Assembly (NCBI GenBank): GCA_963675915.1 | Contig: OY780959.1 | Span: forward strand, 600,001 to 632,000 | Reading direction: 5' to 3' | From: Coprobacillaceae bacterium | GTDB lineage: Bacteria; Bacillota_I; Bacilli_A; Erysipelotrichales; Coprobacillaceae | DNA: 32,000 nucleotides | Shown here: positions 10,266 through 27,542 of the stretch, one piece after another | Position numbering within the stretch: position 1 is the first letter of the stretch | Layout of the letters: the number at the start of each line of letters is the position of its first letter | Made by a program: the position numbers and the translations under genes | Notes under the pieces: generated by a model | The model's input: the letters and a program-made list of their open reading frames with translations, nothing else | Told to the model about the DNA's origin: nothing | Database searches by the model: none

Positions 10266-10395
10266 AACTCCGATAATGACAAACAAGAATATAAAGATTT
10301 ATTGATGAAAAGTGTCAAAAATGTAAAATCGAAAATGAAACGAGTCAAAGACAAATATTTGTCGGGTCAATTTAATGAGGCAAAGTATTTTAATG
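10266..10395 (+). pseudogene. Middle fragment of the large serine recombinase, between the IS3 and IS66 #2
   Basis: Reads NSDNDKQEYKDLLMKSVKNVKSKMKRVKDKYLSGQFNEAKYFN, which is like the C-terminal coiled-coil region of large serine recombinases. It continues in frame across the IS66 #2 TSD junction into 13160..13353. Confidence 0.65.
10388..10395. repeat. Target-site duplication TTTTAATG, left copy, IS66 #2
   Basis: Identical 8-mer at 13152..13159, abutting both IS ends. Confidence 0.9.
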
Positions 10396-10463
10396 GTATG
10401 CGTCAAATTGAGCGGTGGGAGAATATTCGAGGGTAAGTGAAAAGGAATCCGGGGGACAGTTTG

Positions 10464-12245
10464 TTACCGTCTTGGGATTCCTTTTTTGAGGCCCTTGATC
10501 TCCTTCGTGGTCAATTGACGCAGGTATGTTGGCAGTTCCTTATTGTAGGGTAGTAGTTTTCTAATTTCTTCTTCATCAGTAGGATCGATTCCCGGCAGCC
10601 TTTCCAGTACGTACTCCATGTACATGTACGGTGACAGCTTGTTTTCCTGGGCGCTTAACAGTATCGAATAGATTATCGCTGCGGCTTGCGCTCCTTTGGG
10701 GCTTGTATAGAATTTACATCGATTCCTTGATACGACAAACGGTCGTATAGCCCGTTCCGTGCTTGAATTGTCGAATGGAACTTTCGGGTTATTAAATACC
10801 TCGCTGAATTCCTTTTCGTGGTTCATCAGATATTTGATTGCCTTAAGCAAGGTTGGTTTCATATTAACTTCGGGCAACAGGATTATTTCTTTAAGGTACG
10901 CTAAAAACTTATCGTAGATTGGCTTTACGACATCATTTCGGCCCTTATGAATATATTGGAAATATTTATCCTGGTTCTTTGAGTATTTTCCCTTAGCAGC
11001 CTGTTCAATTTTGTTTTTTGCTTCGAATACTTTTTTGTAATAGCGATAGCAAGTGTATTCGTAACTTTGATTTTTATCGGTGCCTTTTGGCAGTACATCC
11101 AAGGCTTCCCGGAAATAGCGAAAGGCATGAACGTGGCAAAAACAGTTGGTGACATTATCAAGCGACTCGTAAGCACCATAGGCGTCTGTTACCAGATAGT
11201 GGGAGTAATCACCGATGAAGTCTTCAACAACCCGTTTTGAACGACTAGGATCATAACGGTACAAGATAATTGGTTCGTCATACTGATTGCTCCGTAGAAC
11301 CCAAAGATATGATTTGCTTTGCGCTGGTTTGCCGTCTTCCTTTAGAACCTGGGTGGTGGTTTCATCGCAGTGGATCACTTCCATGGACAACAAGTCTTTG
11401 TGCATGCACTCAAACAACAGGTTAAGATGAACCGATGCCTTGATCATCCAGTTGGCCATATTCTGTCTAGGGATGACGATGTCATTTTCAAGGAAACGTT
11501 TTTCCTGAGCAGCCAGTGGCAAACCCTTTAAATATTTCATGTCCATTATAGTTGCAATCAGTGATGGCGATGCAATGCTTCCCTTGATAACCGGTTGTCT
11601 TCCAGGAACTTTCTTGTACGATGATTTACCTTCCAAGTTGTGTTCCTGACAAGCAACACATTCGTATACCGGTGTACGGTAAATATTCAATTCAACTTTG
11701 GCGGGTGTATAGACAAGTTCTTTTCTTTCATCGTATTTTTTGATTGTCATAGTTGTACCACAAAGATCGCAAACGTCGAAACCATCAGGAGTTTCTTCTG
11801 TAATTATATTGGTTTTGAGATGGTCATAATTGATATGTTTTTCTTTGGGGATTCTAACTTTTCTTTTGTAACCTTTGATTTCCGTAGTTTCGAATTCTTC
11901 GGTTTCAGTAGCATTATCAAAATCAACACCGATTAGACTAAACAGATCAGGACCTTGGTTATATTCCTTAATATTGTTGCGTTGGGAGCTGTAGCGGGCG
12001 TTTTCCAATAATTTGATGTATTCGTTTTTCTGTTGTAGTTCAAGTTTGCGTTCTTTGATTTCAGCTGCCATTTTATCAATATCGGAAGTCAATTTCTTAT
12101 TATCGGCAGATAAATTCTTCTTTTCTTTAATAAGTTTTTCTTTTGAAATACGGTCGGATTCGATTTTGGCATAGAGTTCCTGTTCACGTTGTTTGAACGC
12201 TTCGATAAGTTCTTCTTTTGTCATATCTTCCATCAATTTGATCAC
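10464..12245 (-). CDS. tnpC: IS66-family transposase TnpC (593 aa)
   Basis: Coiled-coil N-terminus, Zn finger (CDLCGTTM…CVACQEH) and DDE core (HCDETTTQVL…, TDAYGAYE, CFCHVHAFRYF). Paralogous to the protein at 410..1981. Confidence 0.9.
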   Translation of the reverse strand: MIKLMEDMTKEELIEAFKQREQELYAKIESDRISKEKLIKEKKNLSADNKKLTSDIDKMAAEIKERKLELQQKNEYIKLLENARYSSQRNNIKEYNQGPDLFSLIGVDFDNATETEEFETTEIKGYKRKVRIPKEKHINYDHLKTNIITEETPDGFDVCDLCGTTMTIKKYDERKELVYTPAKVELNIYRTPVYECVACQEHNLEGKSSYKKVPGRQPVIKGSIASPSLIATIMDMKYLKGLPLAAQEKRFLENDIVIPRQNMANWMIKASVHLNLLFECMHKDLLSMEVIHCDETTTQVLKEDGKPAQSKSYLWVLRSNQYDEPIILYRYDPSRSKRVVEDFIGDYSHYLVTDAYGAYESLDNVTNCFCHVHAFRYFREALDVLPKGTDKNQSYEYTCYRYYKKVFEAKNKIEQAAKGKYSKNQDKYFQYIHKGRNDVVKPIYDKFLAYLKEIILLPEVNMKPTLLKAIKYLMNHEKEFSEVFNNPKVPFDNSSTERAIRPFVVSRNRCKFYTSPKGAQAAAIIYSILLSAQENKLSPYMYMEYVLERLPGIDPTDEEEIRKLLPYNKELPTYLRQLTTKEIKGLKKGIPRR

Positions 12246-12392
12246 TTGAATACACCTCTTTCCACTAGTGGCATTGTAGCATAAAAAGCCCTGAAAGTCT
12301 TGATTTCACGGCAATTTATAAAAGATGTGAATAACTTCAAAAGGCAAAAGATAAACCCACAAAAAAATGTGAATTAATCTTATGCGTAGGGG

Positions 12393-12752
12393 CTATATCA
12401 TTACTGAAATGTCCTTGAATGCCCTTTTCTGTTCAATTGCCAATCCATCAAGCAACCAACTCAACTGACGGATGTCAACAACCATTGAAGTGATATCTTC
12501 ATCACCCTTGGGCCAGAAGAACTTATCTTTATTAAGCAGCTTCTTGGAGTGGATGACAAATCCGTTCTTGTCGAACTCCAGCATCTTGATGCTTTTCTTG
12601 GATCTGTTGCAAAAGATGTACAGGTTATTGGCGGTGGGGTCAAGATACAGGCTGTGGGATACAATCGCGCTTAACCCGGCGTAGCTTTTCCTAAGATCAG
12701 TTGCCCCAGGAACCAAATAGATATTGTCGAAGTCTTCAAACCTAAGCTTCAT
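12393..12752 (-). CDS. tnpB: IS66 TnpB (119 aa)
   Basis: IYLVPGATDLRKSYAGLSAIV…YIFCNRSKKSIKMLEFDKNGFVIHSKKL matches the IS66 Orf2 pattern. Confidence 0.9.
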   Translation of the reverse strand: MKLRFEDFDNIYLVPGATDLRKSYAGLSAIVSHSLYLDPTANNLYIFCNRSKKSIKMLEFDKNGFVIHSKKLLNKDKFFWPKGDEDITSMVVDIRQLSWLLDGLAIEQKRAFKDISVMI

Positions 12753-13104
12753 TGATCATACCTATCAGTTTAGCCAGAGTTTCCAAGTCTGTCGAGTCGT
12801 CAACCGAAATAGTAGCCTTGCCAATATTGACATCGAACCCCTTGGAAACAACTTTACTGTTGCAATCAACAATATCCAGCCTGACAAGAGCTGTAGTAAA
12901 TCCAGAATCCTTAACTTCATCTCTTGAGCGATTCAAATATGGCTTAGAATACTTGTGGTAGCAAAAAGCATTGTACGAAACATCGTTAGCCAAACACCAT
13001 TTTTTAATGGTCAGATCACTATTGGCAGCCTCAGTAAATATCACCTGCCACTGATCATCAGAATAATTCAAATCATCACACCTCCAATTCGATGTGATAA
13101 TCAT
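12742..13104 (-). CDS. tnpA: IS66 TnpA (120 aa)
   Basis: First ORF inside the IS end; overlaps tnpB by 11 nt. Confidence 0.75.
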   Translation of the reverse strand: MIITSNWRCDDLNYSDDQWQVIFTEAANSDLTIKKWCLANDVSYNAFCYHKYSKPYLNRSRDEVKDSGFTTALVRLDIVDCNSKVVSKGFDVNIGKATISVDDSTDLETLAKLIGMINEA

Positions 13105-13151
13105 ACCATCAATGACCTCGACAACCTACCACCGCTCTATTTGACGCATAC

Positions 13152-13159
13152 TTTTAATG
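13152..13159. repeat. Target-site duplication TTTTAATG, right copy, IS66 #2
   Basis: Identical to 10388..10395. Confidence 0.9.
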
Positions 13160-13353
13160 TGATGACAATGCTTGAAGAGGAATTGTTTGAGATACAATAT
13201 AAATTGGTTGGCATTAATTTAAATATCAATAAGGACGAATACAAGAATTTGGTGTTAATGGCTGACAAAAAACAGTTTATCCAAATGCACATCAAATTAA
13301 TTATGATAAATCTAAACAACAAGAAAATATCGAAAATCGAATTTGTTGAATAG
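13160..13353 (+). pseudogene. C-terminal fragment of the large serine recombinase
   Basis: (V)MTMLEEELFEIQYKLVGINLN…KISKIEFVE*. It is in frame with 10266..10395 once IS66 #2 and one TSD copy are removed. The track ORF 12955..13353 is a chimera of IS antisense sequence plus this tail. Confidence 0.7.
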
Positions 13354-13387
13354 AGTATATTTTGTTATCTTTTGATGGCCGACTAAT

Positions 13388-13422
13388 GTAGCCAAGGGGG
13401 ATTCCCTTGGCTACATTTTTTT
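13388..13422 (+). terminator. Rho-independent terminator after the recombinase gene
   Basis: GTAGCCAAGGG-GGATT-CCCTTGGCTAC, an 11-bp GC-rich stem, followed by ATTTTTTT. Confidence 0.8.
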
Positions 13423-13434
13423 GTGCCGGGCATG

Positions 13435-13568
13435 GAATATAAATTGGTGGTGCAAGGCCACTAGTAATTATGGTTGACAAGAGACAGTTTATATTGACTC
13501 ATATTAAAATAATTTGTATAAATTTATATAATAAGAAGATTTCGAATATTGAATTGGTTGGGTTTTAA
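13435..13568 (+). pseudogene. Degenerate second copy of the recombinase 3' end
   Basis: AATATAAATTGGTGG…TTATGGTTGACAAGAGACAGTTTATATTGACTCATATTAAAATAATTTGTATAAATTTATATAATAAGAAGATTTCGAATATTGAATTGGTTGG aligns at roughly 70 percent by eye with 13195..13350. It contains several in-frame stops. Confidence 0.55.
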
Positions 13569-13799
13569 ACTTATTTAGATAATGAGTTATGGTTTTTATT
13601 ATCAACCGGAAAGATTTCCAGTTTATTTATGTAGGGAAATGTATTTTTCTGGAATGAGAGTATGAGCTCTACTCTGTGCCAAGTAGTATTTTCGAACATT
13701 AAAAGCAAATATTTTTGCTCATTAGCTATATAAAAACAGTTGTTTTATACGAAGTTAACATGTTTTATGTATAGTTATGAGAATATTGTTGCCCATGTG

Positions 13800-13828
13800 T
13801 TGAGATTCATGTGTAATTATGCCATAAT
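13800..13828 (+). promoter_or_regulatory. Candidate sigma-A promoter for the methyltransferase operon
   Basis: TTGAGA, a 17-nt spacer, then CATAAT, about 70 nt upstream of the ATG at 13897. Confidence 0.35.
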
Positions 13829-13896
13829 AATTTAGAATATGGTTATAACTAAGGGGATGAATTGATTGAAATTAAGTAAGAGAGGGGCTAGAACCA

Positions 13897-15024
13897 ATGG
13901 CAAATGAGAGATTATCAAATGCTAAAAACGCAAAAAAAGACGAATTTTATACACAATATGAAGACATTCAACGAGAGGTTAATGCATATTTGGAATATGA
14001 CCAAGAAGTATTCAAAGGGAAAACAGTGCTTTTACCTTGTGATGATCCCGAGTGGAGTGAATTTACAAGATTTTTTGCTCAAAATTTTGAAAGATTTGGG
14101 TTAAAAAAACTAATAAGTACAAGCTATGCAACAGAAAGTAAAAAGCTGAGAAATTATCAGCTGTCTTTATTTGAAGAACAGTCGCCTCAGTATGATAGTT
14201 CAAAAACAAAGACTAATGGAAAGATTTTTACTCTTACTCGCGATATAAACGAATCTGGAAATGTTGATATCGATGATTTGGAGTGGAATTATTTGGAGGG
14301 GGATGGTGACTTCAGAAGCAAGGAAGTAATTGAACTCAGAAATGAAGCTGACATAATTGTCACAAATCCTCCATTTTCACTTTTTAGGGAATTTATTGAG
14401 TGGATTTTTGAAGAAGACAAGAAATTTTTAGTTATCGGAAATCAAAATGCAATCACGTACAAAGATATTTTTTCTTTAATAAAAGACAATAAGTTATGGC
14501 TAGGTAATGGATTTAAAGGAAACATTGGTTATTTCAAATCTGTATATGAGGATATTGCAGTTGCATCTCAACATAAAGAAGGGTTTATTCGTATTTCAGG
14601 CGTAATGTGGTTTACAAATATCGAACACGGTAGAAGACATAGGCCCTTACAGCTTATGTCAATGAATGATAATTTAAAATATAGTAGACACAAACAAATT
14701 AAGGATAGTGGCTATATGAAATATGAGAATTATGATGCTATAGAGGTACCGTTTACGGATTCGATTCCATATGATTATTTAGGGATAATGGGAGTTCCAA
14801 TCACATTTATGAGTAAATATTGCCCGGAACAATTTGAAATATTAGGTATGTGTGAAAACCTTGATCTATACGGGTTAAAGACTCGAATATACAGTTCGCA
14901 GGAGTGTAGGCAAAGATATTTTGAGATTTTCGGAAGAAAAGGTACTTATGATTTGAATGCATCTGGAGTTATTAATGGAAAAAAGGTGTATCAGCGAATT
15001 TTAATTAGACGCAAGGAGATTTAG
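13897..15024 (+). CDS. N6-adenine DNA methyltransferase (EcoRI-methylase-like family, 375 aa)
   Basis: [10 protein letters not shown]…[10 protein letters not shown]…, then catalytic [14 protein letters not shown] (NPPF at 14365..14376). RBS AGAGGGG upstream. Confidence 0.85.
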
Positions 15025-15026
15025 TA

Positions 15027-16190
15027 ATGAAAACAGTGTTAAGAACAGATATTTCAATTGAAGATATCTGTAAGGGTTTTGTTTATAATGAGTATGAAGG
15101 AAAAGGTCTTTTTGGGCTATCAGGAAAACTAACTATTCAACCAGAATACCAACGCAATTATATTTACGCAGATGGAAAAAAGGATGTTGCTGTCATTGAG
15201 TCAATACTCAAGGGATATCCTTTGGGCCTGATATACTTCACAAAAGTTGGTGAGGAAAAATATGAAGTACTTGATGGTCAGCAAAGGATCACTAGTTTTG
15301 GGAGATTTGTATCTGGTAAATTTGCAATAAAAAATGAAAACGGAATACCACAATATTTTAGTGGTTTAGCTGGGGACATGCGAGATCTAATAATGAAAAC
15401 CAAACTTACAATTTATGAATGTGAGGGTTCAGAAAGCGAAATTAAAGAATGGTTTAAGACAATCAATATTGTAGGAATACCTCTAAACGAACAGGAGCTG
15501 TCAAATGCTATTCATTCTGGACCTTTTGTGACACTGGCAAAAGAAGAATTTAGTAATAGCCAGAATGCAAATATTCAAAAATGGGGTTCTTATATTTCTG
15601 GTAATGTAATTAGGCAAGATTACTTGCGCACAGCAATTAAATGGGTTAGTAAAGATAACATTGATGCCTATATGAGCAAACATCGACATGACAATAATAT
15701 TGACGAATTAAGAGTATATTTCACTAGTGTTATCGATTGGATATCTAGTGTTTTTGTAGATGTTGAAGATACGATGAAAGGTTTAGAGTGGGGAAAATTA
15801 TATGAGGAGTATCATGGCAATTCTTATAATCAACAGACGGTCTCAAAAATGGTAAAAACATATTTGAAAGATTATTATGTCATTGATAAAAAAGGCATCT
15901 ATGAATTTATTCTTGGCGGTTGCAAAGATTCAAAACTTTTAAACATAAGAGTTTTTAATGAAGTGACGAAGAAAAATGCATATGAAACTCAGACAGAACA
16001 GGCTAAATTAAAAGGCGAATCAAATTGTCCTCTATGCGCCTTGGGAAAAAATAATAACAGTAAACGAATTTGGAAAATTAAAGAGATGGACGCTGATCAC
16101 GTAACTGCTTGGAGCAGAGGAGGTATAACAGACATTACAAATTGTGAGATGTTATGTAAAACACACAATCGTGCAAAGGGAAACAGATGA
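15027..16190 (+). CDS. DUF262 (GmrSD N-terminal / ParB-like) domain protein with a C-terminal HNH nuclease (387 aa)
   Basis: IQPEYQRNY…[10 protein letters not shown] (DGQQR at 15273..15287). C-terminal CPLC…[33 protein letters not shown] is an HNH motif. The start is 2 nt after the MTase stop, and its RBS AAGGAG lies inside the MTase 3' end. Confidence 0.85.
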
Positions 16191-16213
16191 TTTTAGAGGA
16201 TTGTATAGCTCTT

Positions 16214-16243
16214 TTGAATACTTACATTATTTCGGGATAATAT
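16214..16243 (+). promoter_or_regulatory. Possible internal promoter ahead of the helicase gene
   Basis: TTGAAT, an 18-nt spacer, then TAATAT, within the 112-nt gap. Confidence 0.3.
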
Positions 16244-16302
16244 CACTACATTAATTTGATTATACCGAATATTTTAATAAAGATTTTGTCAGGGGGTAAG
16301 AA

Positions 16303-19026
16303 ATGCCAAGTGAAACACAACTAAAAATTGATGGACAAATACGCAATATTGATAAAGTTATATGCCGCAACATTGATGGTATAGGAAATAGTACAAGAGG
16401 GGCGGTATCTCAAGATATTTTGGCACAATTAAGGAACTTCGTTGAACACATAATGCTTAAATTTTATGCTGACGGTCAAGATATAGAAGACAGTTATGAT
16501 AATATTTGTAGTGCAATTAATTTCGTGAAAATTAAAGGAGAATTAAAGGTGTTGTGGAGGTTTCATGATTATCTTCAAATTGTTGCATCTCATTTCACTC
16601 TTGATGAGGAAAATTCGGAACGATTAATGCTAAAATATTACGAGTACCTTTTAAGAATTAAAGGTTTGCTTAAGGAAAAATATGATATTGATGTCTTAGG
16701 TAATATTGAGAAATTTCCTGTAAAAAAAGATCCTAACTTGCAAGAATATTATAATAAGATAGCTAAAAAAATTCAATCTTATCAACTACAAAATGTAGAA
16801 TTGCCAAACAAATATTATATACAAAAAATCAAACCTTTTTTTGTAGGGCAAAATATATTTTATGAGGTCACATTTGCTCCGGCAAATGACTGCGCGAGTA
16901 AATTTAACCGGGCTATAGCTTTTACAAGTATAGATATATTAAAAAATTATTCAGTAAGGTTGAATATAGTAGAGGATAGTATTAAAATTTTTGGAAAAAG
17001 TATGCCAATTTTAGTTATTGTAGGATGGGAGGTTGCAATTAGAAATTGCGAGTATAAAAATTTTACAAGTTTAATCAGAGGTTACCCTGCTAGAACTAGA
17101 TATTCAGAACAAAAGGGAGTTTCAATGTTTTTGTCTCATACGGGGTTAACTTTGCTTGAGGTAGTTGATTTTCCGTGTGAAAATTTTCAAAGAGTCAGAA
17201 ATTGGGCAACACAACATACAAAAGATGTTGTGTTCTTTGATGATTTAGAAGTGTGTCGCCAAATATTGCAAAAAAATAGTCCAGGAAGTAACGTGATAAG
17301 ATATTTACTTTATTGTATGAATAATAAAGTGATAAAAAATCAATATCATCCCAGTGAAAACCATCTATTATCTGGACTTCATCTGAAAAATGGGTGTATA
17401 CCGTTTGATAAAATTCCTTTTAACGCTTCTCTCTTAGGACATAATCCTAAACTTATGGATTTATTTGGGTGTATTGAGACTCAAAATAGACAACATGAAT
17501 TACTGGCGAGATTGGTGAGAAACAATACAGAAATGGAAGGGATTTTATTTACACCTATCAAAGATATTAAGGGATTTGCTGATGTTTCGCATCTAGCGAT
17601 GTTATATAATTCTAAGCTGTGGTCCGGTCATGTTGAAAATAGCAAATTAGTTATAGAGAATGGTCATATTTTTATAAATGGTTATAAGAATGACACGAGT
17701 GTTATTATCGGCAAACTAAAAAAAATGGCTAAGAATGGTGTTCAAAATTATTCTAATTCAGTTTTAGAGTGGTTAAATACTCCAAATAATGGGGTTGATT
17801 GTGATGAGAAGAGAGAGGCTTTAGTTCATATGTTTGATAAATCCAGTGTCGCACTTGTATATGGTGCTGCCGGTACTGGAAAATCGACTTTTATTAATCA
17901 TGTAGCTCATTTTTTTTCAAATAAAAGAAAACTTTTTTTAGCTCAGACTCACCCGGCTGTCGATAATTTGAAACGTCGAGTTAATGCATCCAACTGTGAG
18001 TTTATGACGATTGCAAAATTCTTAAATAAACAAATACCTGTGACTAAATTTGATTTGATAGTGATAGATGAATGCAGTACTGTAAACAATAAGGATATGA
18101 AAAATGTCTTGGAAAAGGGCAAATGCCAACTTTTGGTTCTAGTTGGAGATTCGTATCAAATATCGTCAATACGTTTTGGCAATTGGTTCAGCATAGCGCC
18201 ATATTTTATCTCTAAAAATTCAGTTTTGAATTTGACTATGCCCTATAGAAGTAATAGTGAGAAATTACTTGTTTTGTGGAATAGAGTGCGTAAAATGGAT
18301 GATAGAATTTTAGAGATAATTACTCGCCAAGGATATTCATCAACGTTAGACGATTCTATTTTTGTTGCAAATGAGATAGACGAAATAATACTTTGTCTTA
18401 ATTATGATGGATTATATGGAATTAATAACATCAATCTTTTTTTGCAAGAAAACAATCCTAACACAGCTGTACATTGGGGAATACAGCAGTACAAGATGGG
18501 CGATCCAATTTTATTTAATGACGTTGAACGTTTTTCTCCAATAATTTATAACAATATGAAAGGTCGTATTAAAGACGTTAAGATAATCAAGAGTGAAAAC
18601 AATGCTGAACGTATACAATTTGATATTGAGTTAGATAAGGCAATAAATGGGATGGATGCATTTGGCCAGGATTTTGAGTTATTGGAAAGCGCAAGTAATG
18701 GTAATTCAATTATTAGATTTTATGTAAATAAAGACAAGAGTGTTGACGATGATGATTCTGGGTCCTCAATGTCTATAGTGCCTTTTCAAGTCGCTTATGC
18801 TGTATCTATTCATAAGGCCCAGGGGCTTGAATATAACTCTGTAAAAATAGTCATAACTAACGAAGTAGATGAATTAATTACTCACAATATATTTTATACG
18901 GCTATTACGCGTGCAAGAAATCACTTAAAGATTTACTGGACACCGGAAATTGAAAAGAGAATTTTAGGTAATATTGAACCTAAAAAAAATAATAAAGATG
19001 CTCATCTTTTGAGAAGATACTTATAG
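16303..19026 (+). CDS. 907-aa protein: unknown ~500-aa N-terminal region + RecD/Dda-like SF1 helicase
   Basis: Helicase motifs in order: GAAGTGKST (17863..), AQTHPAVDNL, LIVIDECS, LVLVGDSYQISSI, MPYRS, VSIHKAQGLEYNSV, FYTAITRARNHLKIY. RBS AGGGGG upstream. Confidence 0.85.
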   Translation: MPSETQLKIDGQIRNIDKVICRNIDGIGNSTRGAVSQDILAQLRNFVEHIMLKFYADGQDIEDSYDNICSAINFVKIKGELKVLWRFHDYLQIVASHFTLDEENSERLMLKYYEYLLRIKGLLKEKYDIDVLGNIEKFPVKKDPNLQEYYNKIAKKIQSYQLQNVELPNKYYIQKIKPFFVGQNIFYEVTFAPANDCASKFNRAIAFTSIDILKNYSVRLNIVEDSIKIFGKSMPILVIVGWEVAIRNCEYKNFTSLIRGYPARTRYSEQKGVSMFLSHTGLTLLEVVDFPCENFQRVRNWATQHTKDVVFFDDLEVCRQILQKNSPGSNVIRYLLYCMNNKVIKNQYHPSENHLLSGLHLKNGCIPFDKIPFNASLLGHNPKLMDLFGCIETQNRQHELLARLVRNNTEMEGILFTPIKDIKGFADVSHLAMLYNSKLWSGHVENSKLVIENGHIFINGYKNDTSVIIGKLKKMAKNGVQNYSNSVLEWLNTPNNGVDCDEKREALVHMFDKSSVALVYGAAGTGKSTFINHVAHFFSNKRKLFLAQTHPAVDNLKRRVNASNCEFMTIAKFLNKQIPVTKFDLIVIDECSTVNNKDMKNVLEKGKCQLLVLVGDSYQISSIRFGNWFSIAPYFISKNSVLNLTMPYRSNSEKLLVLWNRVRKMDDRILEIITRQGYSSTLDDSIFVANEIDEIILCLNYDGLYGINNINLFLQENNPNTAVHWGIQQYKMGDPILFNDVERFSPIIYNNMKGRIKDVKIIKSENNAERIQFDIELDKAINGMDAFGQDFELLESASNGNSIIRFYVNKDKSVDDDDSGSSMSIVPFQVAYAVSIHKAQGLEYNSVKIVITNEVDELITHNIFYTAITRARNHLKIYWTPEIEKRILGNIEPKKNNKDAHLLRRYL

Positions 19027-19187
19027 AAATATTAACATTTCTTCAATAATATTTGGTTTACCTTCTGAATTTTAATAAGTATATTGATTTGATAGACGAA
19101 AGTATCTTTGTAACTTATTACAGAGTAAAAAAATAAAATAAGTATACTATGTAGATCAGTTTAATATTTCCAAAAATACTTTAAAGG

Positions 19188-19195
19188 TGTATAAT
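19188..19195 (+). promoter_or_regulatory. Extended -10 element TGTATAAT ahead of the OLD-family gene
   Basis: TGnTATAAT match about 50 nt upstream of the ATG at 19247. The -35 is weak (TTTCCA at 17-nt spacing). Confidence 0.35.
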
Positions 19196-19246
19196 GTCAA
19201 CATAGAGTGTTGTAAAATGCTTATATTTAATATGAGGGGTAATAAA

Positions 19247-21175
19247 ATGATCAAGTTGCTAAATGTCAAAGTAAAAAAGTATAAATGCATTGAAACTGAA
19301 CAAAATTTTAAGGTAGAGGATGATGTGACGGTTCTAGTTGGGATGAACGAATCAGGAAAAACAAGTGTTCTAGAAGCGATAGCTAAAGCAAATTATTTTG
19401 AAGATGACGATATTTTTAAATATAATAAAACTCATGATTATCCACGGAAACAAGTAAAATCAATTAAGAAAAATACAGATGCACCTGTGGCTGTACTCTT
19501 GTCTTATGAATTATCAGATGATTTAGTTGCGCAAATAAGCGATGATCTTGGATTGAAGATTGATTGTAAATATATTGAATATATTGCGAAATACGATAAT
19601 ACGTTCACTGTACTTGGGATAAAGCCGTTATTTTCGGTTAGAGAGTTTTTGGAATTGAAATTAGGTGGTATTAATCTCGAAAATGGTGAATTGGAAAAAA
19701 TCTATAAAGAATTTGAAGTAGTAAAAGATAAAAAAAGTTTTGGCACTACTATCAATTCTTTCAAGAGTTTTTTGCATGAAAATGGGATAACGATGCTGAC
19801 ATCACTAGAAAAATATTTTTCTAATGAAGGTAAATGGGAAAATCCTATAATTTACTATATTTGGAATTCTCATATAAAGCCAAGGATACCCAAATTCATG
19901 TATTATGATGACTACTATTCTTTGCCTTCTAGAATACCACTTGAAGATATTCAAAGGAATAATGCTTTAGAACCATCTAATAAAACGGCAAAAGCGCTAT
20001 TAGAACTTGCCGATATAGACTTAGATAATCTTCTAAAATCGGACGATTTTGAAGATTTTAAGGCTGAACTAGAAGCTACACAAGAAAATATAACCTCAGA
20101 GCTTTTTAAGTACTGGAATACTAATTCAAATCTAAGTATTAGGTTTGATGTAGACACAAAAGAAGTCACAAAGCCAAATAATCAAAAAGTAACCAAACAT
20201 ATACTTGATATAAGGGTTTGGAATGATAGAAATAGGGTATCTTTACCATTGAAGAATAGAAGTAAGGGATTTAATTGGTTTTTCTCATTTTTAGTTTGGT
20301 TTAAAAAAATCCAAGAGGATGATTCAGGTTCATTTATTTTACTATTGGATGAACCGGGCTTAAACTTGCATGCCATGGCTCAGAATGATTTATTAAGGTT
20401 TATTTACGATCTTACTTCTGAATATCAAATCATTTATACAACACATTCACCTTTTATGATTGATTCTGAAAAATTAGATAAAGTTAGGACTGTAGTTGAA
20501 AAGTCTGATGGAACTCATATTTCTGATAGCCTGCAAGAAAAAGATCCGAGCACGCTGTTTCCACTTCAAGCCGCATTAGGATACACTTTAGCGCAAAATT
20601 TATTCGTTTCACCTAATAATCTTATTGTTGAAGGGATTGCTGATTTGACATTTATAAATATTATATCTGGAGTTTTGGAGGCTAAGGGCAGGTCTGGATT
20701 AGATGGTAAAATTACTGTTGTTCCAGTAGGTGGAGCTGATAAAGTTGCAACTTTTGTTTCTTTAATGAGGGGCAATGAATTGAATGTTGTCTGCTTATTA
20801 GATACGTTTAGTGATAAATCTGCTGAAGCGCGTTTACAACATTTGGTTAAAGGAAAAATCATATCAGATAAGAAAATTATGTTTTATGATGAATTCATAG
20901 ATAGTGATTTTGCTGATGTTGAGGACTTATTTACTAAGGATGATTACTTGCATCTATATAACAATAATTTCGGTGAAAGCATATCAATCTCCGATTTGGA
21001 ACCAGATGAACCCATCCTAGATCAGATCAAAAAAATTAGAGGAGGGAAAAATTTTAATCACTATGGTCCGGCTAATTATTTAGCTAAACATATTCAGGAT
21101 GTAAATTTATCTTCTGGAACGTTGGATAGATTTGAAAAATTATTAGAAAAGGTCAATAATAAGTTTGTAAAGTAG
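19247..21175 (+). CDS. OLD-family nuclease-like protein: ABC-type ATPase + C-terminal TOPRIM (642 aa)
   Basis: The start is moved to the ATG at 19247, with RBS GAGGGG 8 nt upstream. Walker A GMNESGKTS, signature-like SKGFNWFFSF, Walker B ILLLDEPG and H-loop YTTHSP. TOPRIM-like LIVEGIADL…VVPVGGADK…CLLDTFSD (about 20609..20836). Confidence 0.8.
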   Translation: MIKLLNVKVKKYKCIETEQNFKVEDDVTVLVGMNESGKTSVLEAIAKANYFEDDDIFKYNKTHDYPRKQVKSIKKNTDAPVAVLLSYELSDDLVAQISDDLGLKIDCKYIEYIAKYDNTFTVLGIKPLFSVREFLELKLGGINLENGELEKIYKEFEVVKDKKSFGTTINSFKSFLHENGITMLTSLEKYFSNEGKWENPIIYYIWNSHIKPRIPKFMYYDDYYSLPSRIPLEDIQRNNALEPSNKTAKALLELADIDLDNLLKSDDFEDFKAELEATQENITSELFKYWNTNSNLSIRFDVDTKEVTKPNNQKVTKHILDIRVWNDRNRVSLPLKNRSKGFNWFFSFLVWFKKIQEDDSGSFILLLDEPGLNLHAMAQNDLLRFIYDLTSEYQIIYTTHSPFMIDSEKLDKVRTVVEKSDGTHISDSLQEKDPSTLFPLQAALGYTLAQNLFVSPNNLIVEGIADLTFINIISGVLEAKGRSGLDGKITVVPVGGADKVATFVSLMRGNELNVVCLLDTFSDKSAEARLQHLVKGKIISDKKIMFYDEFIDSDFADVEDLFTKDDYLHLYNNNFGESISISDLEPDEPILDQIKKIRGGKNFNHYGPANYLAKHIQDVNLSSGTLDRFEKLLEKVNNKFVK

Positions 21176-21399
21176 GATGCAGATTTGATAAAACATTGAT
21201 AATTTTGCAGCTATTTTTGCTATTCGTGTTACGTATCGTAGTTATCACGATTAAAAAGACGATAATTGCATTGCAATTGTAATATAAAAGTAGAAAAACT
21301 ACTAAGAAAATAATTGTCTTAACAGGCTTTCTACTTTTATCATGCTTAAATTTGCATGGAAGCAAATTGATGATTATATCTTGCTTGCAGTGATTGAAA

Positions 21400-21520
21400 G
21401 TAAGCGTCAAATAGATACACGGTTTAAAATTGAGTGCCTCGAGTTAGAATATCATTTTAATTTATAACAGTAGGTACTTTTTATGAATTCTCAAGAGCGT
21501 TATGATTATTAGAATGGTCT
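21400..21520 (+). mobile_element. Solo end / remnant of an IS66 #1-like element
   Basis: GTAAGCGTCAAATAGA IR plus ~105 nt matching the tnpA-proximal end of IS66 #1 (reverse complement of 2630..2747) with scattered mismatches. The tnpA start reads MNSQERYDY* (TGG changed to TAG). Similarity is lost after 21520. Confidence 0.75.
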
Positions 21521-21575
21521 GAGCTTGTCCGTTTGAGGTCCAAAAAACAGCCGCATCCCCAATTGATTACTTTTA

Positions 21576-21583
21576 GATTAACA
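21576..21583. repeat. Target-site duplication GATTAACA, left copy, IS66 #3
   Basis: Identical 8-mer at 24339..24346. Confidence 0.9.
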
Positions 21584-21630
21584 GTATGCGTCAAATAGAG
21601 CGGTGGTAGGTTGTCGAGTTCATTGATGGT

Positions 21631-21993
21631 ATGATTATCACATCGAATTGGAGGTGTGATGATTTGAATTATTCTGATGATCAGTGGCAGGTGATATTTA
21701 CTGAGGCTGCCAATAGTGATCTGACCATTAAAAATTGGTGTTTGGCTAACGATGTTTCGTACAATGCTTTTTGCTACCACAAGTATTCTAAGCCATATTT
21801 GAATCGCTCAAGAGATGAAGTTAAGGATTCTGGATTTACTACAGCTCTTGTCAGGCTGGATATTGTTGATTGCAACAGTAAGGTTGTTTCCAAGGGGTTC
21901 GATGTCAATATTGGCAAGGCTACTATTTCGGTTGACGACTCGACAGACTTGGAAACTCTGGCTAAACTGATAGGTATGATCAATGAAGCTTAG
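21631..21993 (+). CDS. tnpA: IS66 TnpA (120 aa)
   Basis: One aa difference from 12742..13104 (K versus N). Confidence 0.75.
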   Translation: MIITSNWRCDDLNYSDDQWQVIFTEAANSDLTIKNWCLANDVSYNAFCYHKYSKPYLNRSRDEVKDSGFTTALVRLDIVDCNSKVVSKGFDVNIGKATISVDDSTDLETLAKLIGMINEA

Positions 21994-22342
21994 GTTTGAA
22001 GACTTCGACAATATCTATTTGGTTCCTGGGGCAACTGATCTTAGGAAAAGCTACGCCGGGTTAAGCGCGATTGTATCCCACAGCCTGTATCTTGACCCCA
22101 CCGCCAATAACCTGTACATCTTTTGCAACAGATCCAAGAAAAGCATCAAGATGCTGGAGTTCGACAAGAACGGATTTGTCATCCACTCCAAGAAGCTGCT
22201 TAATAAAGATAAGTTCTTCTGGCCCAAGGGTGATGAAGATATCACTTCAATGGTTGTTGACATCCGTCAGTTGAGTTGGTTGCTTGATGGATTGGCAATT
22301 GAACAGAAAAGGGCATTCAAGGACATTTCAGTAATGATATAG
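21983..22342 (+). CDS. tnpB: IS66 TnpB (119 aa)
   Basis: Protein identical to 12393..12752. Confidence 0.9.
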   Translation: MKLRFEDFDNIYLVPGATDLRKSYAGLSAIVSHSLYLDPTANNLYIFCNRSKKSIKMLEFDKNGFVIHSKKLLNKDKFFWPKGDEDITSMVVDIRQLSWLLDGLAIEQKRAFKDISVMI

Positions 22343-22489
22343 CCCCTACGCATAAGATTAATTCACATTTATTTGTGGGTTTATCTTATGCCTTTTGAAG
22401 TTATTCACATCTTTTATAAATTGCCGTGAAATCAAGACTTTCAGGGCTTTTTATGCTACAATGCCACTAGTGGAAAGAGGTGGATTCAA

Positions 22490-24274
22490 GTGATCAAATT
22501 GATGGAAGATATGACAAAAGAAGAACTTATCGAAGCGTTCAAACAACGTGAACAGGAACTCTATGCCAAAATCGAATCCGACCGTATTTCAAAAGAAAAA
22601 CTTATTAAAGAAAAGAAGAATTTATCTGCCGATAATAAGAAATTGACTTCCGATATTGATAAAATGGCAGCTGAAATCAAAGAACGCAAACTTGAACTAC
22701 AACAGAAAAACGAATACATCAAATTATTGGAAAACGCCCGCTACAGCTCCCAACGCAACAATATTAAGGAATATAACCAAGGTCCTGATCTGTTTAGTCT
22801 AATCGGTGTTGATTTTGATAATGCTACTGAAACCGAAGAATTCGAAACTACGGAAATCAAAGGTTACAAAAGAAAAGTTAGAATACCTAAAGAAAAACAC
22901 ATCAATTATGACCATCTCAAAACCAATATAATTATAGAAGAAACTCCTGATGGTTTCGATATTTGTGATCTTTGTGGCACAACCATGAAAATAAAGAAGT
23001 ACGATGAAAGAAAGGAACTTGTCTATACTCCTGCCAAAGTTGAATTGAATATTTACCGTACACCGGTATACGAATGTGTTGCTTGTCAGGAACACAACTT
23101 GGAAGGTAAATCATCTTACAAGAAAGTTCCTGGAAGACAACCGGTTATCAAAGGAAGCATTGCATCGCCATCACTGATTGCAACTATAATGGACATGAAA
23201 TATTTAAAGGGTTTGCCACTGGCTGCTCAGGAAAAACGTTTCCTTGAAAATGACATCGTCATCCCTAGACAGAATATGGCCAACTGGATGATCAAGGCAT
23301 CGGTTCATCTTAACCTGTTGTTTGAGTGCATGCACAAAGACTTGTTGTCCATGGAAGTGATCCACTGCGATGAAACCACCACCCAGGTTCTAAAGGAAGA
23401 CGGCAAACCAGCGCAAAGCAAATCATATCTTTGGGTTCTACGGAGCAATCAGTATGACGAACCAATTATCTTGTACCGTTATGATCCTAGTCGTTCAAAA
23501 CGGGTTGTTGAAGACTTCATCGGTGATTACTCCCACTATCTGGTAACAGATGCCTATGGTGCTTACGAGTCGCTTGATAATGTCACCAACTGTTTTTGCC
23601 ACGTTCATGCCTTTCGCTATTTCCGGGAAGCCTTGGATGTACTGCCAAAAGGCACCGATAAAAATCAAAGTTACGAATACACTTGCTATCGCTATTACAA
23701 AAAAGTATTCGAAGCAAAAAACAAAATTGAACAGGCTGCTAAGGGAAAATACTCAAAGAACCAGGATAAATATTTCCAATATATTCATAAGGGCCGAAAT
23801 GATGTCGTAAAGCCAATCTACGATAAGTTTTTAGCGTACCTTAAAGAAATAATCCTGTTGCCCGAAGTTAATATGAAACCAACCTTGCTTAAGGCAATCA
23901 AATATCTGATGAACCACGAAAAGGAATTCGGCGAGGTATTTAATAACCCGAAAGTTCCATTCGACAATTCAAGCACGGAACGGGCTATACGACCGTTTGT
24001 CGTATCAAGGAATCGATGTAAATTCTATACAAGCCCCAAAGGAGCGCAAGCCGCAGCGATAATCTATTCGATACTGTTAAGCGCCCAGGAAAACAAGCTG
24101 TCACCGTACATGTACATGGAGTACGTACTGGAAAGGCTGCCGGGAATAGATTCTAGTGATGAAGATGAAATCAGGAAACTACTACCATACAATAAAGAAC
24201 TGCCAAGATATCTGCGTCAATTGACAGCGAAGGAAATCAAAGAACTAAAAAAAGGAATCCCAAGACGGAAATAA
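22490..24274 (+). CDS. tnpC: IS66-family transposase TnpC (594 aa)
   Basis: Near-identical to 10464..12245. GTG start with RBS AGAGGTGG upstream. Confidence 0.9.
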   Translation: MIKLMEDMTKEELIEAFKQREQELYAKIESDRISKEKLIKEKKNLSADNKKLTSDIDKMAAEIKERKLELQQKNEYIKLLENARYSSQRNNIKEYNQGPDLFSLIGVDFDNATETEEFETTEIKGYKRKVRIPKEKHINYDHLKTNIIIEETPDGFDICDLCGTTMKIKKYDERKELVYTPAKVELNIYRTPVYECVACQEHNLEGKSSYKKVPGRQPVIKGSIASPSLIATIMDMKYLKGLPLAAQEKRFLENDIVIPRQNMANWMIKASVHLNLLFECMHKDLLSMEVIHCDETTTQVLKEDGKPAQSKSYLWVLRSNQYDEPIILYRYDPSRSKRVVEDFIGDYSHYLVTDAYGAYESLDNVTNCFCHVHAFRYFREALDVLPKGTDKNQSYEYTCYRYYKKVFEAKNKIEQAAKGKYSKNQDKYFQYIHKGRNDVVKPIYDKFLAYLKEIILLPEVNMKPTLLKAIKYLMNHEKEFGEVFNNPKVPFDNSSTERAIRPFVVSRNRCKFYTSPKGAQAAAIIYSILLSAQENKLSPYMYMEYVLERLPGIDSSDEDEIRKLLPYNKELPRYLRQLTAKEIKELKKGIPRRK

Positions 24275-24338
24275 ACTGTCCCTGGATTCCTTTTCACTTA
24301 CCCTCGAATATTCTCCCACCGCTCTATTTGACGCATAC

Positions 24339-24346
24339 GATTAACA
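24339..24346. repeat. Target-site duplication GATTAACA, right copy, IS66 #3
   Basis: Identical to 21576..21583. Confidence 0.9.
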
Positions 24347-26992: not shown

Positions 26993-27002
26993 ATTTGGTA
27001 TG

Positions 27003-27053
27003 GTTTCCTGGCGAACTAAAATGGTTGCACAGGAAACTAAATAGGTGTAAGAT
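27003..27053 (+). promoter_or_regulatory. Candidate marR-operon promoter with an overlapping inverted repeat (possible MarR operator)
   Basis: TTGCAC (27025..27030), a 17-nt spacer, then TAAGAT (27048..27053). A perfect 8-bp inverted repeat GTTTCCTG (27003..27010) / CAGGAAAC (27030..27037) overlaps the -35. Confidence 0.35.
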
Positions 27054-27069
27054 AAGGCGAGGTGAAAAT

Positions 27070-27540: not shown

Positions 27541-27542
27541 CA

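What the first reader, a model, noticed from the sequence alone, without database searches (positions are those of the whole stretch)
16303..21175. Helicase + OLD-family pair with Gabija-like logic but different parts and reversed order
Established: class 2 OLD nucleases (GajA) work with a downstream UvrD-like SF1A helicase of ~500 aa (GajB). Seen here: the helicase gene comes first and is 907 aa. Its motifs (VGDSYQISSI, SIHKAQGLEYNSV, YTAITRA) are of the RecD/Dda/TraA SF1B type, not UvrD/PcrA. The OLD-like gene follows after 220 nt that carry an extended -10 (TGTATAAT). Inference: this may be an undescribed OLD-helicase partnership, or simply two adjacent single-gene systems.
Basis: partly seen in the sequence, partly recalled or inferred. 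Interest (0 to 1): 0.8.

Follow-up and report, generated by a model that had tools for sequence, protein, structure and literature searches.

The report
Two unrelated defence genes side by side
A helicase gene and an OLD-type nuclease gene really do sit next to each other here. In 160 related loci from other organisms neither gene ever has the other nearby, so they are most likely two separate single-gene anti-phage candidates in a defence island, not a new Gabija-like pair.

Summary
A 907-aa SF1B (RecD/Pif1/Dda-type) helicase gene lies at 16303-19026. After 220 nt comes a 642-aa ABC-ATPase + Toprim (OLD-family) gene at 19247-21175.

The proposed partnership does not hold. None of 80 loci encoding OLD homologs (42-61% identity, many phyla) has this helicase within the sequence held (up to 10 kb each side). 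None of 80 loci encoding helicase homologs (53-70%) has this OLD. The closest known relatives of each gene (62% and 70%) also lack the other.

The helicase matches PADLOC's untested candidate PDC-S53 end to end (1270 bits). Its relatives often sit inside or beside type I restriction-modification (RM) operons.

The OLD protein is closest in sequence and fold to the stand-alone Class 1 OLD of Thermus scotoductus, not to GajA. No UvrD-like helicase follows any of its homologs.

Directly upstream is a self-contained type II RM pair. Its nearest relatives occur alone between housekeeping genes.

Two IS66-family copies flank the four genes, but each copy has its own 8-bp target duplication.

Verdict: an ordinary defence island holding three independent modules. 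Low interest, apart from two untested protein families.

The parts
13897..15024 (+). Type II DNA adenine methyltransferase of the EcoRI-methylase family (375 aa). First gene of a two-gene RM module.
   Evidence: Pfam EcoRI_methylase 414 bits over the full length. PADLOC MTase_II 295 bits. Paired with the same type of restriction enzyme in stand-alone cassettes elsewhere.
15027..16190 (+). Restriction endonuclease with a GmrSD_N (DUF262) N-terminal domain and a C-terminal HNH domain (387 aa). Second gene of the RM module.
   Evidence: Pfam GmrSD_N 73 bits and HNH 30 bits. PADLOC REase_II 279 bits, 19-386 against 13-371 of 372. Homologs at 76-77% identity sit directly after an EcoRI-type methylase gene between housekeeping genes, with no helicase or OLD gene.
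16303..19026 (+). 907-aa helicase. Residues 1-480 are conserved but of unknown fold family; residues ~480-907 form an SF1B (RecD/Pif1/Dda-type) core. Member of PADLOC candidate family PDC-S53.
   Evidence: PADLOC PDC-S53 1270 bits, 8-906 against 3-893 of 900. Pfam AAA_30, Viral_helicase1 and UvrD_C_2. NCBIfam RecD2 105 bits. Foldseek top matches are RecD, RecD2, Pif1 and Dda. No Pfam hit for the N-terminal 480 aa. 24 homologs show 82% mean column identity, N-terminus included.
19027..19246 (+). 220-nt spacer. It holds a -10 hexamer TATAAT (19190-19195), a weak -35 TTTCCA (19167-19172, 17-nt spacing) and a Shine-Dalgarno GAGGGG (19234-19239).
   Evidence: The TG is directly adjacent to the hexamer, so this is not the canonical TGnTATAAT. 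No terminator-like site. RNA fold z-score -0.25. No Rfam match.
19247..21175 (+). 642-aa OLD-family protein. It has an N-terminal ABC ATPase with an inserted helical region, a C-terminal Toprim domain and a terminal helical domain. By context it is stand-alone, like Class 1 OLD.
   Evidence: Pfam AAA_15 80 bits, AAA_21 50 bits, OLD-like_TOPRIM 21 bits. PADLOC Old 88, AriA 88, best GajA 72 bits. PDB profile search puts TsOLD 6P74 first at 3.9e-12. AF2 model pLDDT 79; best Foldseek match is 6p74 at 5.5e-15. Walker A K38, Walker B D368/E369, H400, E462, D466, D519, D557, E559 and D560 are 99-100% conserved in 100 members.
10396..13151 (-). IS66-family element, copy A (three ORFs of 120, 119 and 593 aa). 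Flanked by its own 8-bp target duplication TTTTAATG (10388-10395 and 13152-13159).
   Evidence: Inverted repeat of 2706 nt at 98% identity with copy B. ORFs. Ends and duplications read.
21584..24338 (+). IS66-family element, copy B. Flanked by its own 8-bp target duplication GATTAACA (21576-21583 and 24339-24346).
21397..21520 (.). Fragment of the end of a different IS66-family element, related to the one at 410-2750. It lies 222 nt downstream of the OLD stop codon, just upstream of where copy B inserted.
   Evidence: Inverted repeats I2 (2626-2729 with 21417-21520, 89%) and I8 (2718-2750 with 21397-21429). Sequence.

Best explanation
The 8.4-kb stretch between the two IS66-family copies is a small defence island. 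It holds three independent modules that happen to be neighbours.

1. A type II RM pair: an EcoRI-family adenine methyltransferase and a GmrSD_N-HNH endonuclease.

2. A single-gene helicase candidate of the PADLOC family PDC-S53. It joins a conserved 480-aa N-terminal region of unknown function to an SF1B core that would translocate 5'->3' on single-stranded DNA.

3. A stand-alone OLD-family nuclease, like Class 1 by context.

Likely mechanism of the OLD protein (inferred). It works on its own as a dimer. The ABC-ATPase heads bind and hydrolyse ATP, and the Toprim domain uses two metal ions to nick or cut phage DNA, which blocks phage genome replication. This is what has been shown for Class 1 OLD proteins P2 Old, TsOLD and Vc OLD.

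Likely mechanism of the helicase (inferred, weaker). It acts on its own and loads on single-stranded phage replication or recombination intermediates. Its N-terminal region would serve as sensor or effector.

What is shown: domain content, conserved catalytic residues, fold similarity, and the absence of any conserved partner in either family. What is inferred: anti-phage function, nuclease and helicase activity, and independence of the two genes in this particular cell.
For: Co-occurrence.
- 0 of 80 OLD-homolog loci carry a PDC-S53-type helicase. 71 of the 80 have at least 3 kb on one or both sides. The only hit is an unrelated 1495-aa SF1 protein in L050, at 29% identity over 186 aa.
- 0 of 80 helicase-homolog loci carry this OLD. 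65 of the 80 have at least 2.2 kb on one or both sides.
- Clustering all neighbours finds no conserved partner for either gene.
- The nearest relatives confirm this. OLD at 62% sits beside a rolling-circle Rep gene. OLD at 61% has no helicase nearby. OLD at 58% follows a type III RM. Helicase at 70% follows HsdM-HsdS-HsdR. Helicase at 69% sits beside an NgoFVII-type RM.
- None of the 10 tested large same-strand genes in the GajB position downstream of OLD homologs is a UvrD-like helicase.

Phyletic split. The named close helicase relatives are mostly Bacillaceae. The named close OLD relatives include Parvimonas, Oscillospiraceae, Fusobacterium and Veillonella.

Identity of the helicase. It matches PDC-S53 end to end at 1270 bits. 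PDC families are untested candidates found embedded in BREX, DISARM and type I RM systems (10.1101/2024.01.29.577857). In line with that, 11 of 80 homolog loci carry HsdR and 7 carry HsdM.

Identity of the OLD protein. It is closest to Class 1 TsOLD by profile search (3.9e-12, with GajA absent below 1e-3). It is also closest by fold (5.5e-15, against about 6e-11 for GajA).

The RM pair is autonomous elsewhere.
Against: - The two genes are on the same strand, only 220 nt apart, with no predicted terminator between them. Co-transcription here cannot be excluded.
- No relative closer than 62% (OLD) or 70% (helicase) identity exists in the searched data, so the immediate lineage of this genome could not be sampled.
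- The 160 loci are the 80 best-scoring of 317 confirmed OLD relatives and 80 of 374 confirmed helicase relatives. They are not an exhaustive census.
- Neither family has been tested experimentally.
- Physical interaction was not modelled. No multimer tool was available, and the pair (1549 aa) exceeds the 1200-aa limit of the structure tool.
Confidence: 0.85

Rival explanations
1. A newly assembled two-gene system specific to this lineage. The SF1B helicase and the OLD nuclease would cooperate as GajB and GajA do, for example with the helicase exposing or sensing DNA ends for the Toprim nuclease, but with non-homologous parts and reversed order.
For: The genes share a strand, sit 220 nt apart and have no predicted terminator between them. 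OLD nucleases are known to work with partners in Gabija and retrons (PMC10568477). The OLD protein is larger than typical Class 1 proteins (642 aa against 528 aa for the TsOLD 6P74 chain) and has an extra C-terminal helical domain.
Against: Co-occurrence is zero in both directions across 160 loci and five nearest-homolog look-ups. Both families are large (more than 7600 and more than 3400 proteins at E <= 1e-10) and persist without each other. The gene has its own Shine-Dalgarno and a promoter-like -10 before it. The named close relatives of the two genes come from different taxa.
Confidence: 0.06
2. The functional unit is the RM pair plus the OLD gene (MTase-REase-OLD), and the helicase is a later insertion between them.
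For: In L077 (Croceitalea) homologs of the same MTase (45%) and REase (39%) lie directly upstream of an OLD homolog (45%) with no helicase between them. L060 has the same MTase and REase 6.6 kb upstream. L075 has a related 400-aa DUF262 protein about 1 kb upstream. OLD homologs also often follow other RM types: type III in L001 and L180, and type ISP in L051, L055 and L058.
Against: Only 2-3 of 80 OLD loci have this RM type. The closest RM homologs (76-77%) are stand-alone two-gene cassettes between ftsZ and a sigma-factor gene, or next to lysS, with no OLD. An RM pair is a complete system by itself. Adjacency to varied RM types is what defence-island clustering predicts.
Confidence: 0.06
3. 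The helicase works with the adjacent DUF262 (GmrSD_N) nuclease rather than with the OLD protein.
For: DUF262-type proteins lie near helicase homologs in 15 of 80 loci, against 4 of 80 OLD loci. In several loci the gene starts 15-60 nt after the helicase stop (L098, L101, L102, L112, L138) or ends a few bases before the conserved helicase region begins (L094). In the window a GmrSD_N-HNH gene ends 112 nt before the helicase gene.
Against: Several of the 15 loci are redundant contigs, leaving about 11 distinct. The DUF262 proteins are of different, mutually distant types (584-1002 aa GmrSD-like, against 387 aa with HNH here), and their positions and strands vary. 65 of 80 loci lack one. GmrSD-type enzymes work alone and are themselves common inserts in type I RM operons. 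The window's DUF262 protein is clearly paired with the methylase.
Confidence: 0.05

Closest known systems
Class 1 OLD nucleases (P2 Old, Thermus scotoductus OLD PDB 6P74, Vibrio cholerae Vc OLD, E. coli YbjD)
   Same: [quoted passage not shown] The gene stands alone with no conserved partner. TsOLD is the best match by sequence profile and by fold. Counterparts of TsOLD E377, D381, D431 and the S478-x-E480 pair are conserved as E462, D466, D519 and D557-x-E559. The D-x-E form of the last pair is as in P2 Old (D541, E543).
   Different: Only distant similarity (14% identity in the structural alignment; 49 bits in the profile search). At 642 aa it is longer than the 528-aa TsOLD chain. The second Asp of the Toprim DxD motif is replaced by Phe or Tyr in 91% of 100 members, with an Asp or Glu four residues after the first. 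The family is found inside defence islands and next to RM systems, whereas a review describes Class 1 genes as not proximal to other defence genes (PMC10568477). It is untested.
Gabija (GajA Class 2 OLD + GajB UvrD-like helicase)
   Same: An OLD-family ATPase-Toprim gene lies next to an SF1 helicase gene on the same strand. GajA structures are significant fold matches (about 6e-11 to 9e-11).
   Different: The helicase is upstream, not downstream. It is SF1B, not SF1A. It is 907 aa with a 480-aa extra domain, against roughly 500 aa for GajB. The GajB model matches only the P-loop (25 bits) and the GajA models match only partially (72 bits or less). The pairing is not conserved: 0/80 and 0/80.
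PADLOC phage defence candidate PDC-S53
   Same: End-to-end HMM match at 1270 bits. Homologs are embedded in or adjacent to type I RM operons, which is how PDC families were found.
   Different: Nothing structural. This is a member at about 70% identity to its nearest relatives. Here it lies next to a type II RM and an OLD gene rather than inside a type I RM operon.
PARIS (AriA ABC ATPase + AriB Toprim; Class 4 OLD) and retron-linked Class 3 OLD
   Same: The ABC-ATPase region scores as high on an AriA model (88 bits) as on the Old model.
   Different: ATPase and Toprim are fused in one protein. The fused AriAB model matches only partially (45 bits). There is no separate AriB gene. No ORF between the two IS copies is a reverse transcriptase, and no Rfam RNA family matches there.

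Membership tests
Gabija / Class 2 OLD (GajA-GajB) | A UvrD/PcrA/Rep-like (SF1A) helicase gene immediately downstream of the old gene | tested here: not met
   Downstream of the OLD gene there are only 222 nt and then IS remnants. The adjacent helicase is upstream and is SF1B. None of the 10 tested large same-strand downstream neighbours of OLD homologs is UvrD-like.
Gabija / Class 2 OLD (GajA-GajB) | Full-length match to GajA and GajB profile models | tested here: not met
   The best GajA model scores 71.9 bits over 357-496 only. GajB scores 25.4 bits over 54 residues, the P-loop. No GajA chain appears among PDB profile hits at E <= 1e-3.
Gabija / Class 2 OLD (GajA-GajB) | Class 2-specific helical insert within the Toprim domain | tested here: inconclusive
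   Foldseek ranks Class 1 TsOLD about four orders of magnitude above GajA. No residue-level superposition could be made, and the model is weak at 431-448 and 500-540.
Class 1 OLD | N-terminal ABC ATPase and C-terminal Toprim in one polypeptide | tested here: met
   Pfam AAA_15 and AAA_21 plus OLD-like_TOPRIM. The profile alignment to 6P74 runs from Walker B through the Toprim glutamate. Fold match.
Class 1 OLD | Single gene with no conserved helicase, reverse transcriptase or AriB partner | tested here: met
   In 80 loci across many phyla the most frequent neighbours are integrases (8 loci) and a small HTH protein (8 loci). Nearest homologs.
Class 1 OLD | Conserved Toprim metal ligands (TsOLD E377, D431, D433 for metal A; D381, S478, E480 for metal B; PMC7049728) | tested here: inconclusive
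   E462, D466, D519, D557 and E559 are 99-100% conserved. The position matching D433 is Phe or Tyr in 91% of members. D523 (84% Asp, 7% Glu) may substitute. The mapping rests on the HMMER alignment for E462 and D466 and on spacing for the rest.
Class 1 OLD | ATP-dependent nuclease activity and anti-phage protection by the single gene | not testable with these tools
   This needs biochemistry and phage challenge.
Class 3 OLD (retron effector) | Adjacent reverse transcriptase and msr-msd non-coding RNA | tested here: not met
   The four large ORFs between the IS copies are an MTase, a REase, a helicase and the OLD protein; none matches a reverse transcriptase. No Rfam family matches in 13000-21700 at gathering threshold. 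Absence of an Rfam hit alone is weak evidence.
Class 4 OLD / PARIS | Separate AriA (ATPase) and AriB (Toprim/DUF4435) genes, or a fused AriAB protein matching the AriAB model | tested here: not met
   There is no second Toprim gene. The AriAB model scores 45 bits over 171-410 only. The AriA model (88 bits) covers only the generic ATPase part. PDB AriA scores 2.3e-4 over 43 residues.
PADLOC PDC-S53 | Full-length match to the family HMM | tested here: met
   1270.4 bits, residues 8-906 against profile 3-893 of 900.
PADLOC PDC-S53 | Demonstrated anti-phage function | not testable with these tools
   The source paper describes the 145 PDC systems as untested candidates (10.1101/2024.01.29.577857). 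No paper in the library mentions PDC-S53.
SF1B helicases (RecD, RecD2, Pif1, Dda) | Sequence and fold of the two RecA-like domains closest to RecD/Pif1/Dda rather than UvrD/PcrA/Rep | tested here: met
   Pfam AAA_30 and UvrD_C_2. NCBIfam RecD2 105 bits and RecD 96 bits. Foldseek ranks 1-32 are RecD, RecD2, Pif1, Dda and the like. Translocation polarity was not tested.
Composite transposon (two IS copies moving the cargo as one unit) | One target-site duplication at the outer ends of the whole unit | tested here: not met
   Each IS copy carries its own matching 8-bp duplication: TTTTAATG around copy A and GATTAACA around copy B. The outer flanks differ. This shows two separate insertions. Later mobilisation as a unit is not excluded.

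The most novel reading that the evidence does not exclude
In this one lineage the PDC-S53 helicase and the Class-1-like OLD nuclease have been newly brought together and cooperate, or show synergy, as a Gabija analogue built from non-homologous parts. The event would be too recent to appear in any other sampled genome.
Probability: 0.05. Interest if true: 0.6.

Novelty: new member of a known kind. Interest (0 to 1): 0.2.

Why it matters
As a proposed new OLD-helicase system it does not hold up, so it should not be pursued as a Gabija variant.

Some modest value remains. The window gives a clean natural example of two untested but very widespread single-gene defence candidates next to a complete RM system.

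The first is a cross-phylum, Class-1-like OLD clade with an unusual Toprim motif. A 2023 review lists as open whether Class 1 OLD proteins protect on their own. Since then Vc OLD has been shown to.

The second is PDC-S53, whose 480-aa N-terminal region has no known relatives.

Testing either gene alone would add a data point on those questions.

Tried and rejected
- Gabija membership. Rejected because of helicase type, gene order, HMM scores and lack of conservation.
- Retron or PARIS context. Rejected: no reverse transcriptase, no Rfam RNA family and no AriB gene.
- Composite transposon carrying the island. Each IS copy has its own target duplication, so there is no evidence that the unit moved as a whole.
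- DNA-level search for the 8.4-kb cargo and for the IS in plasmids. No match.
- OLD protein against phage records. Only three distant hits, at 27% identity or less.
- Exact-sequence look-ups of the window's own OLD and helicase, to identify the genome. Neither is on record, and cluster look-up gave no name. The organism stays unidentified; the contig is 2.63 Mb.
- A repeated 'big helicase upstream of OLD' theme. The large upstream genes proved heterogeneous: a type ISP RM enzyme, a type III Res, an SNF2 protein, a DinG-like protein, surface proteins, and one unrelated SF1 protein.
- The 'ATP-binding protein' after a helicase homolog on a Lactiplantibacillus plantarum plasmid. It is a GHKL-type ATPase unrelated to OLD.
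- The 628-aa gene upstream of the 69% helicase homolog. It has no Pfam family on record and no similarity to OLD.
- Spacer RNA structure. Not different from shuffled sequence.

Full report
WHAT IS THERE

The window has a 907-aa ORF at 16303-19026 (+) and an ORF at 19187-21175 (+). The second gene most likely starts at the ATG at 19247. GAGGGG lies 7 nt upstream of that ATG, and the N-terminus MIKLLNVKVKKYKC aligns with residue 1 of all homologs.

The quoted helicase motifs are present. The string TGTATAAT is at 19188-19195 and contains a perfect TATAAT. However, the TG touches the hexamer, whereas the canonical extended -10 is TGnTATAAT, and the scan does not count it as extended. Promoter-like sites in this 30% G+C DNA are as common as in shuffled sequence (53 against 46.4 +/- 7.3). 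The spacer has no terminator-like site, no unusual RNA fold (z = -0.25) and no Rfam match.

THE HELICASE

Residues ~480-907 form an SF1B core.
- Pfam gives AAA_30, Viral_helicase1 and UvrD_C_2.
- The best NCBIfam hits are RecD2 (105 bits) and RecD (96 bits), both far below their family cutoffs.
- An AlphaFold2 model (pLDDT 67) finds RecD of RecBCD, RecD2, Pif1 and Dda as its top matches. No UvrD, PcrA or Rep appears in the top 50.

Residues 1-480 are highly conserved in the family (82% mean column identity over 24 sequences) but match no Pfam family.

The whole protein matches PADLOC model PDC-S53 end to end (1270 bits; 8-906 against 3-893 of 900). PDC families are 145 untested 'phage defence candidates'. 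They were found because they are embedded in BREX, DISARM or type I RM systems (10.1101/2024.01.29.577857). No paper in the library mentions PDC-S53.

THE OLD-LIKE PROTEIN

Pfam finds an ABC-ATPase region (AAA_15, AAA_21) and a sub-threshold OLD-like_TOPRIM hit. PADLOC scores are low and ambiguous: Old 88 bits, AriA 88, best GajA 72, fused AriAB 45.

A profile of 24 homologs searched against PDB sequences puts the Class 1 OLD of Thermus scotoductus (6P74) first, at 3.9e-12. That alignment runs through the Toprim glutamate (LLVEGIADL against LLVEGYGD). PtuA and AriA follow, and GajA does not appear below 1e-3.

An AlphaFold2 model (pLDDT 79) also matches 6P74 best, at 5.5e-15. GajA chains score 6e-11 to 9e-11.

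In 100 family members the following residues are 99-100% conserved: Walker A K38, Walker B D368-E369, H400, E462, D466, D519, D557, E559 and D560. The second Asp of the Toprim DxD motif (TsOLD D433; PMC7049728) is Phe or Tyr in 91%. An Asp or Glu sits four residues after D519 in 91%.

DO THE TWO GENES BELONG TOGETHER?

Starting from the OLD gene. A scan of one genome per species returned 80 loci encoding OLD homologs at 42-61% identity. They span Fusobacteriota, Bacillota, Bacteroidota, Proteobacteria, Spirochaetota, Planctomycetota and archaea. 71 of the loci have at least 3 kb on one or both sides.
- tblastn with the helicase found no homolog in any locus. The only hit was an unrelated 1495-aa SF1 protein in L050 (29% over 186 aa).
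- Clustering all 1150 neighbouring ORFs found no conserved partner. The best were integrases (8 loci) and a small HTH protein (8 loci).
- Of 11 large same-strand genes in the GajB position, the 10 tested include no UvrD-like helicase.

Starting from the helicase. 80 metagenome loci encoding homologs at 53-70% identity contain no OLD homolog.
- Recurrent neighbours are HsdR (11 loci), HsdM (7), Dcm-type methylases (7) and DUF262/GmrSD proteins (15).

Nearest relatives.
- OLD at 62% sits beside a rolling-circle Rep gene.
- OLD at 61% has no helicase nearby.
- OLD at 58% (Parvimonas) follows a type III RM.
- Helicase at 70% follows HsdM-HsdS-HsdR.
- Helicase at 69% sits beside an NgoFVII-type RM.

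The named close relatives also come from different taxa. For the helicase they are mostly Bacillaceae. For the OLD protein they include Parvimonas, Oscillospiraceae, Fusobacterium and Veillonella.

The adjacency in this window is therefore unique in the data that could be searched.

WIDER CONTEXT

Directly upstream lie an EcoRI-family methyltransferase (13897-15024) and a GmrSD_N-HNH endonuclease (15027-16190). The latter matches PADLOC REase_II at 279 bits. Their closest homologs (76-77%) form stand-alone two-gene cassettes, inserted between ftsZ and a sigma-factor gene or next to lysS, with neither helicase nor OLD.

Two 98%-identical IS66-family copies in inverted orientation flank the four genes. 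Each copy has its own 8-bp target duplication: TTTTAATG around copy A and GATTAACA around copy B. These are two separate insertions, not proof of a composite transposon.

Further upstream are an IS-truncated Tmn/YobI-type NTPase, two serine recombinases and an IS3-family element. The whole region is a mosaic of mobile and defence genes.

HOW IT MOST LIKELY WORKS

There are three independent modules.

The RM pair methylates host DNA and cuts unmethylated DNA.

The OLD protein is inferred to act alone, by analogy with P2 Old, TsOLD and Vc OLD (PMC7049728; PMC12392090; PMC10568477). It would be a dimeric ABC ATPase whose Toprim domain nicks or degrades phage DNA and blocks replication.

The helicase is inferred, more weakly, to be a 5'->3' single-stranded-DNA translocase. 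Its unknown N-terminal region would sense infection or deliver the effect.

Intact motifs and fold are shown here. All activities are inferred.

COMPARISON WITH KNOWN SYSTEMS

It is not Gabija. The helicase is in the wrong position, of the wrong subfamily and of the wrong size, the HMM scores are poor, and the pairing is not conserved.

It is not retron Class 3 or PARIS Class 4. There is no reverse transcriptase, no Rfam RNA family and no AriB gene.

The OLD protein meets the context-based definition of Class 1 and is closest to TsOLD. It remains a distant, longer relative with a variant DxD motif.

The helicase is a member of PDC-S53.

RIVAL READINGS KEPT AT LOW PROBABILITY

- A lineage-specific new partnership (about 0.06).
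- An RM+OLD trio with the helicase inserted later (about 0.06). This rests on L077, where homologs of the same MTase and REase lie directly upstream of an OLD homolog, and on L060 and L075.
- A helicase-DUF262 link (about 0.05). DUF262 proteins occur in 15 of 80 helicase loci against 4 of 80 OLD loci, but these are heterogeneous and partly redundant.

LIMITS

- No relative closer than 62% or 70% identity exists in the data.
- The 160 loci are the best-scoring hits, not a census.
- No multimer prediction or experiment was possible.
- The source organism could not be identified.

VERDICT

This is an ordinary defence island and the interest is low.

Noticed in passing
window 19247-21175; family alignment of 100 members (76 ORFs from loci L001-L080, 23 homologs, and the window protein): In this OLD clade the Toprim DxD motif reads D-[ST]-[FY]-x-[DE]. 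D519 is 99% conserved, position 521 is Phe or Tyr in 91% of members, and position 523 is Asp or Glu in 91%. All other metal ligands are invariant. This probably explains the sub-threshold Pfam Toprim score, and it may mean an altered metal-A site.
   Followed up: partly
window 2757-5792 (+), with 410-2750: A 1011-aa Tmn/YobI-type NTPase matches only positions 160-362 of 363 of the Pfam YobI-ATPase profile and 262-994 of 1273 of PADLOC Tmn. Its N-terminus, with the P-loop, is missing. The gene starts right at the end of another IS66-family element, so this defence gene appears to have been cut by an IS.
   Followed up: partly
window 10388-13159 and 21576-24346: The two 98%-identical inverted IS66-family copies each carry their own perfect 8-bp target duplication: TTTTAATG and GATTAACA. 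These are two independent insertions flanking the defence genes.
   Followed up: yes
window 21397-21520: A 124-bp end fragment of a second type of IS66-family element lies 222 nt after the OLD stop codon, just upstream of where IS copy B inserted. It is 89% identical to 2626-2729, inverted. This points to nested IS insertions at the island's edge.
   Followed up: partly
L077 2819-6908; L060 1348-11908; L075 3079-7250: Homologs of the window's EcoRI-type methylase and GmrSD_N-HNH endonuclease lie directly upstream of an OLD homolog in Croceitalea (L077) and 6.6 kb upstream in a Phototrophicaceae MAG (L060). A related 400-aa DUF262 protein lies about 1 kb upstream in L075. That makes 2-3 of 80 loci plus the window.
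   Followed up: partly
L081-L160 (for example L101 8176-11184, L102 12741-15266, L094 3234-5327): DUF262/GmrSD-type genes lie near PDC-S53 helicase homologs in 15 of 80 loci, against 4 of 80 OLD loci. In several loci the gene starts 15-60 nt after the helicase stop. Some contigs are redundant, and the DUF262 proteins are diverse.
   Followed up: partly
L008, L014, L015, L023, L026 and others, just upstream of the OLD homolog: In 8 OLD loci, those inspected being Bacteroidota, a small 104-120-aa helix-turn-helix ORF lies upstream of the OLD gene. In the five loci inspected it ends by overlapping the OLD start codon. It may be a local regulator. It is absent from the window.
   Followed up: no
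window 5982-6407 and 6441-6809 (+): Two tandem small ORFs (141 and 122 aa) with similar sequences (for example 'NENFRVAKILAL' against 'DENFRVGRVEEI') lie between the Tmn fragment and two serine recombinase genes (6963-7532, 7615-8613). One has a weak sub-threshold HAS-barrel hit (21 bits against a cutoff of 25.2). Function unknown.
   Followed up: partly
window 26995-31741 (+): Three ORFs on the same strand, of 181, 696 and 703 aa. The two large ones are similar to each other (for example 'SLYAWVNIAASWDPY' against 'SLYAWVNIGANWDPY') and read as hydrophobic. From memory they resemble YhgE/Pip 'phage infection protein' membrane proteins preceded by a MarR-type regulator, which would point to a low-G+C Gram-positive host. 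This was read from the translations only and not run against any family library.
   Followed up: no
L051, L055, L058 (Acinetobacter); L001 and L180 (Fusobacterium, Parvimonas): OLD homologs sit immediately after a type ISP RM enzyme in three Acinetobacter loci (a gap of about 17 nt). They sit after a type III Mod-Res pair in Parvimonas (L180) and after a ResIII-type 751-aa gene with a Mod-like gene before it in Fusobacterium (L001). This OLD clade therefore often lies at the 3' end of RM operons of different types.
   Followed up: partly
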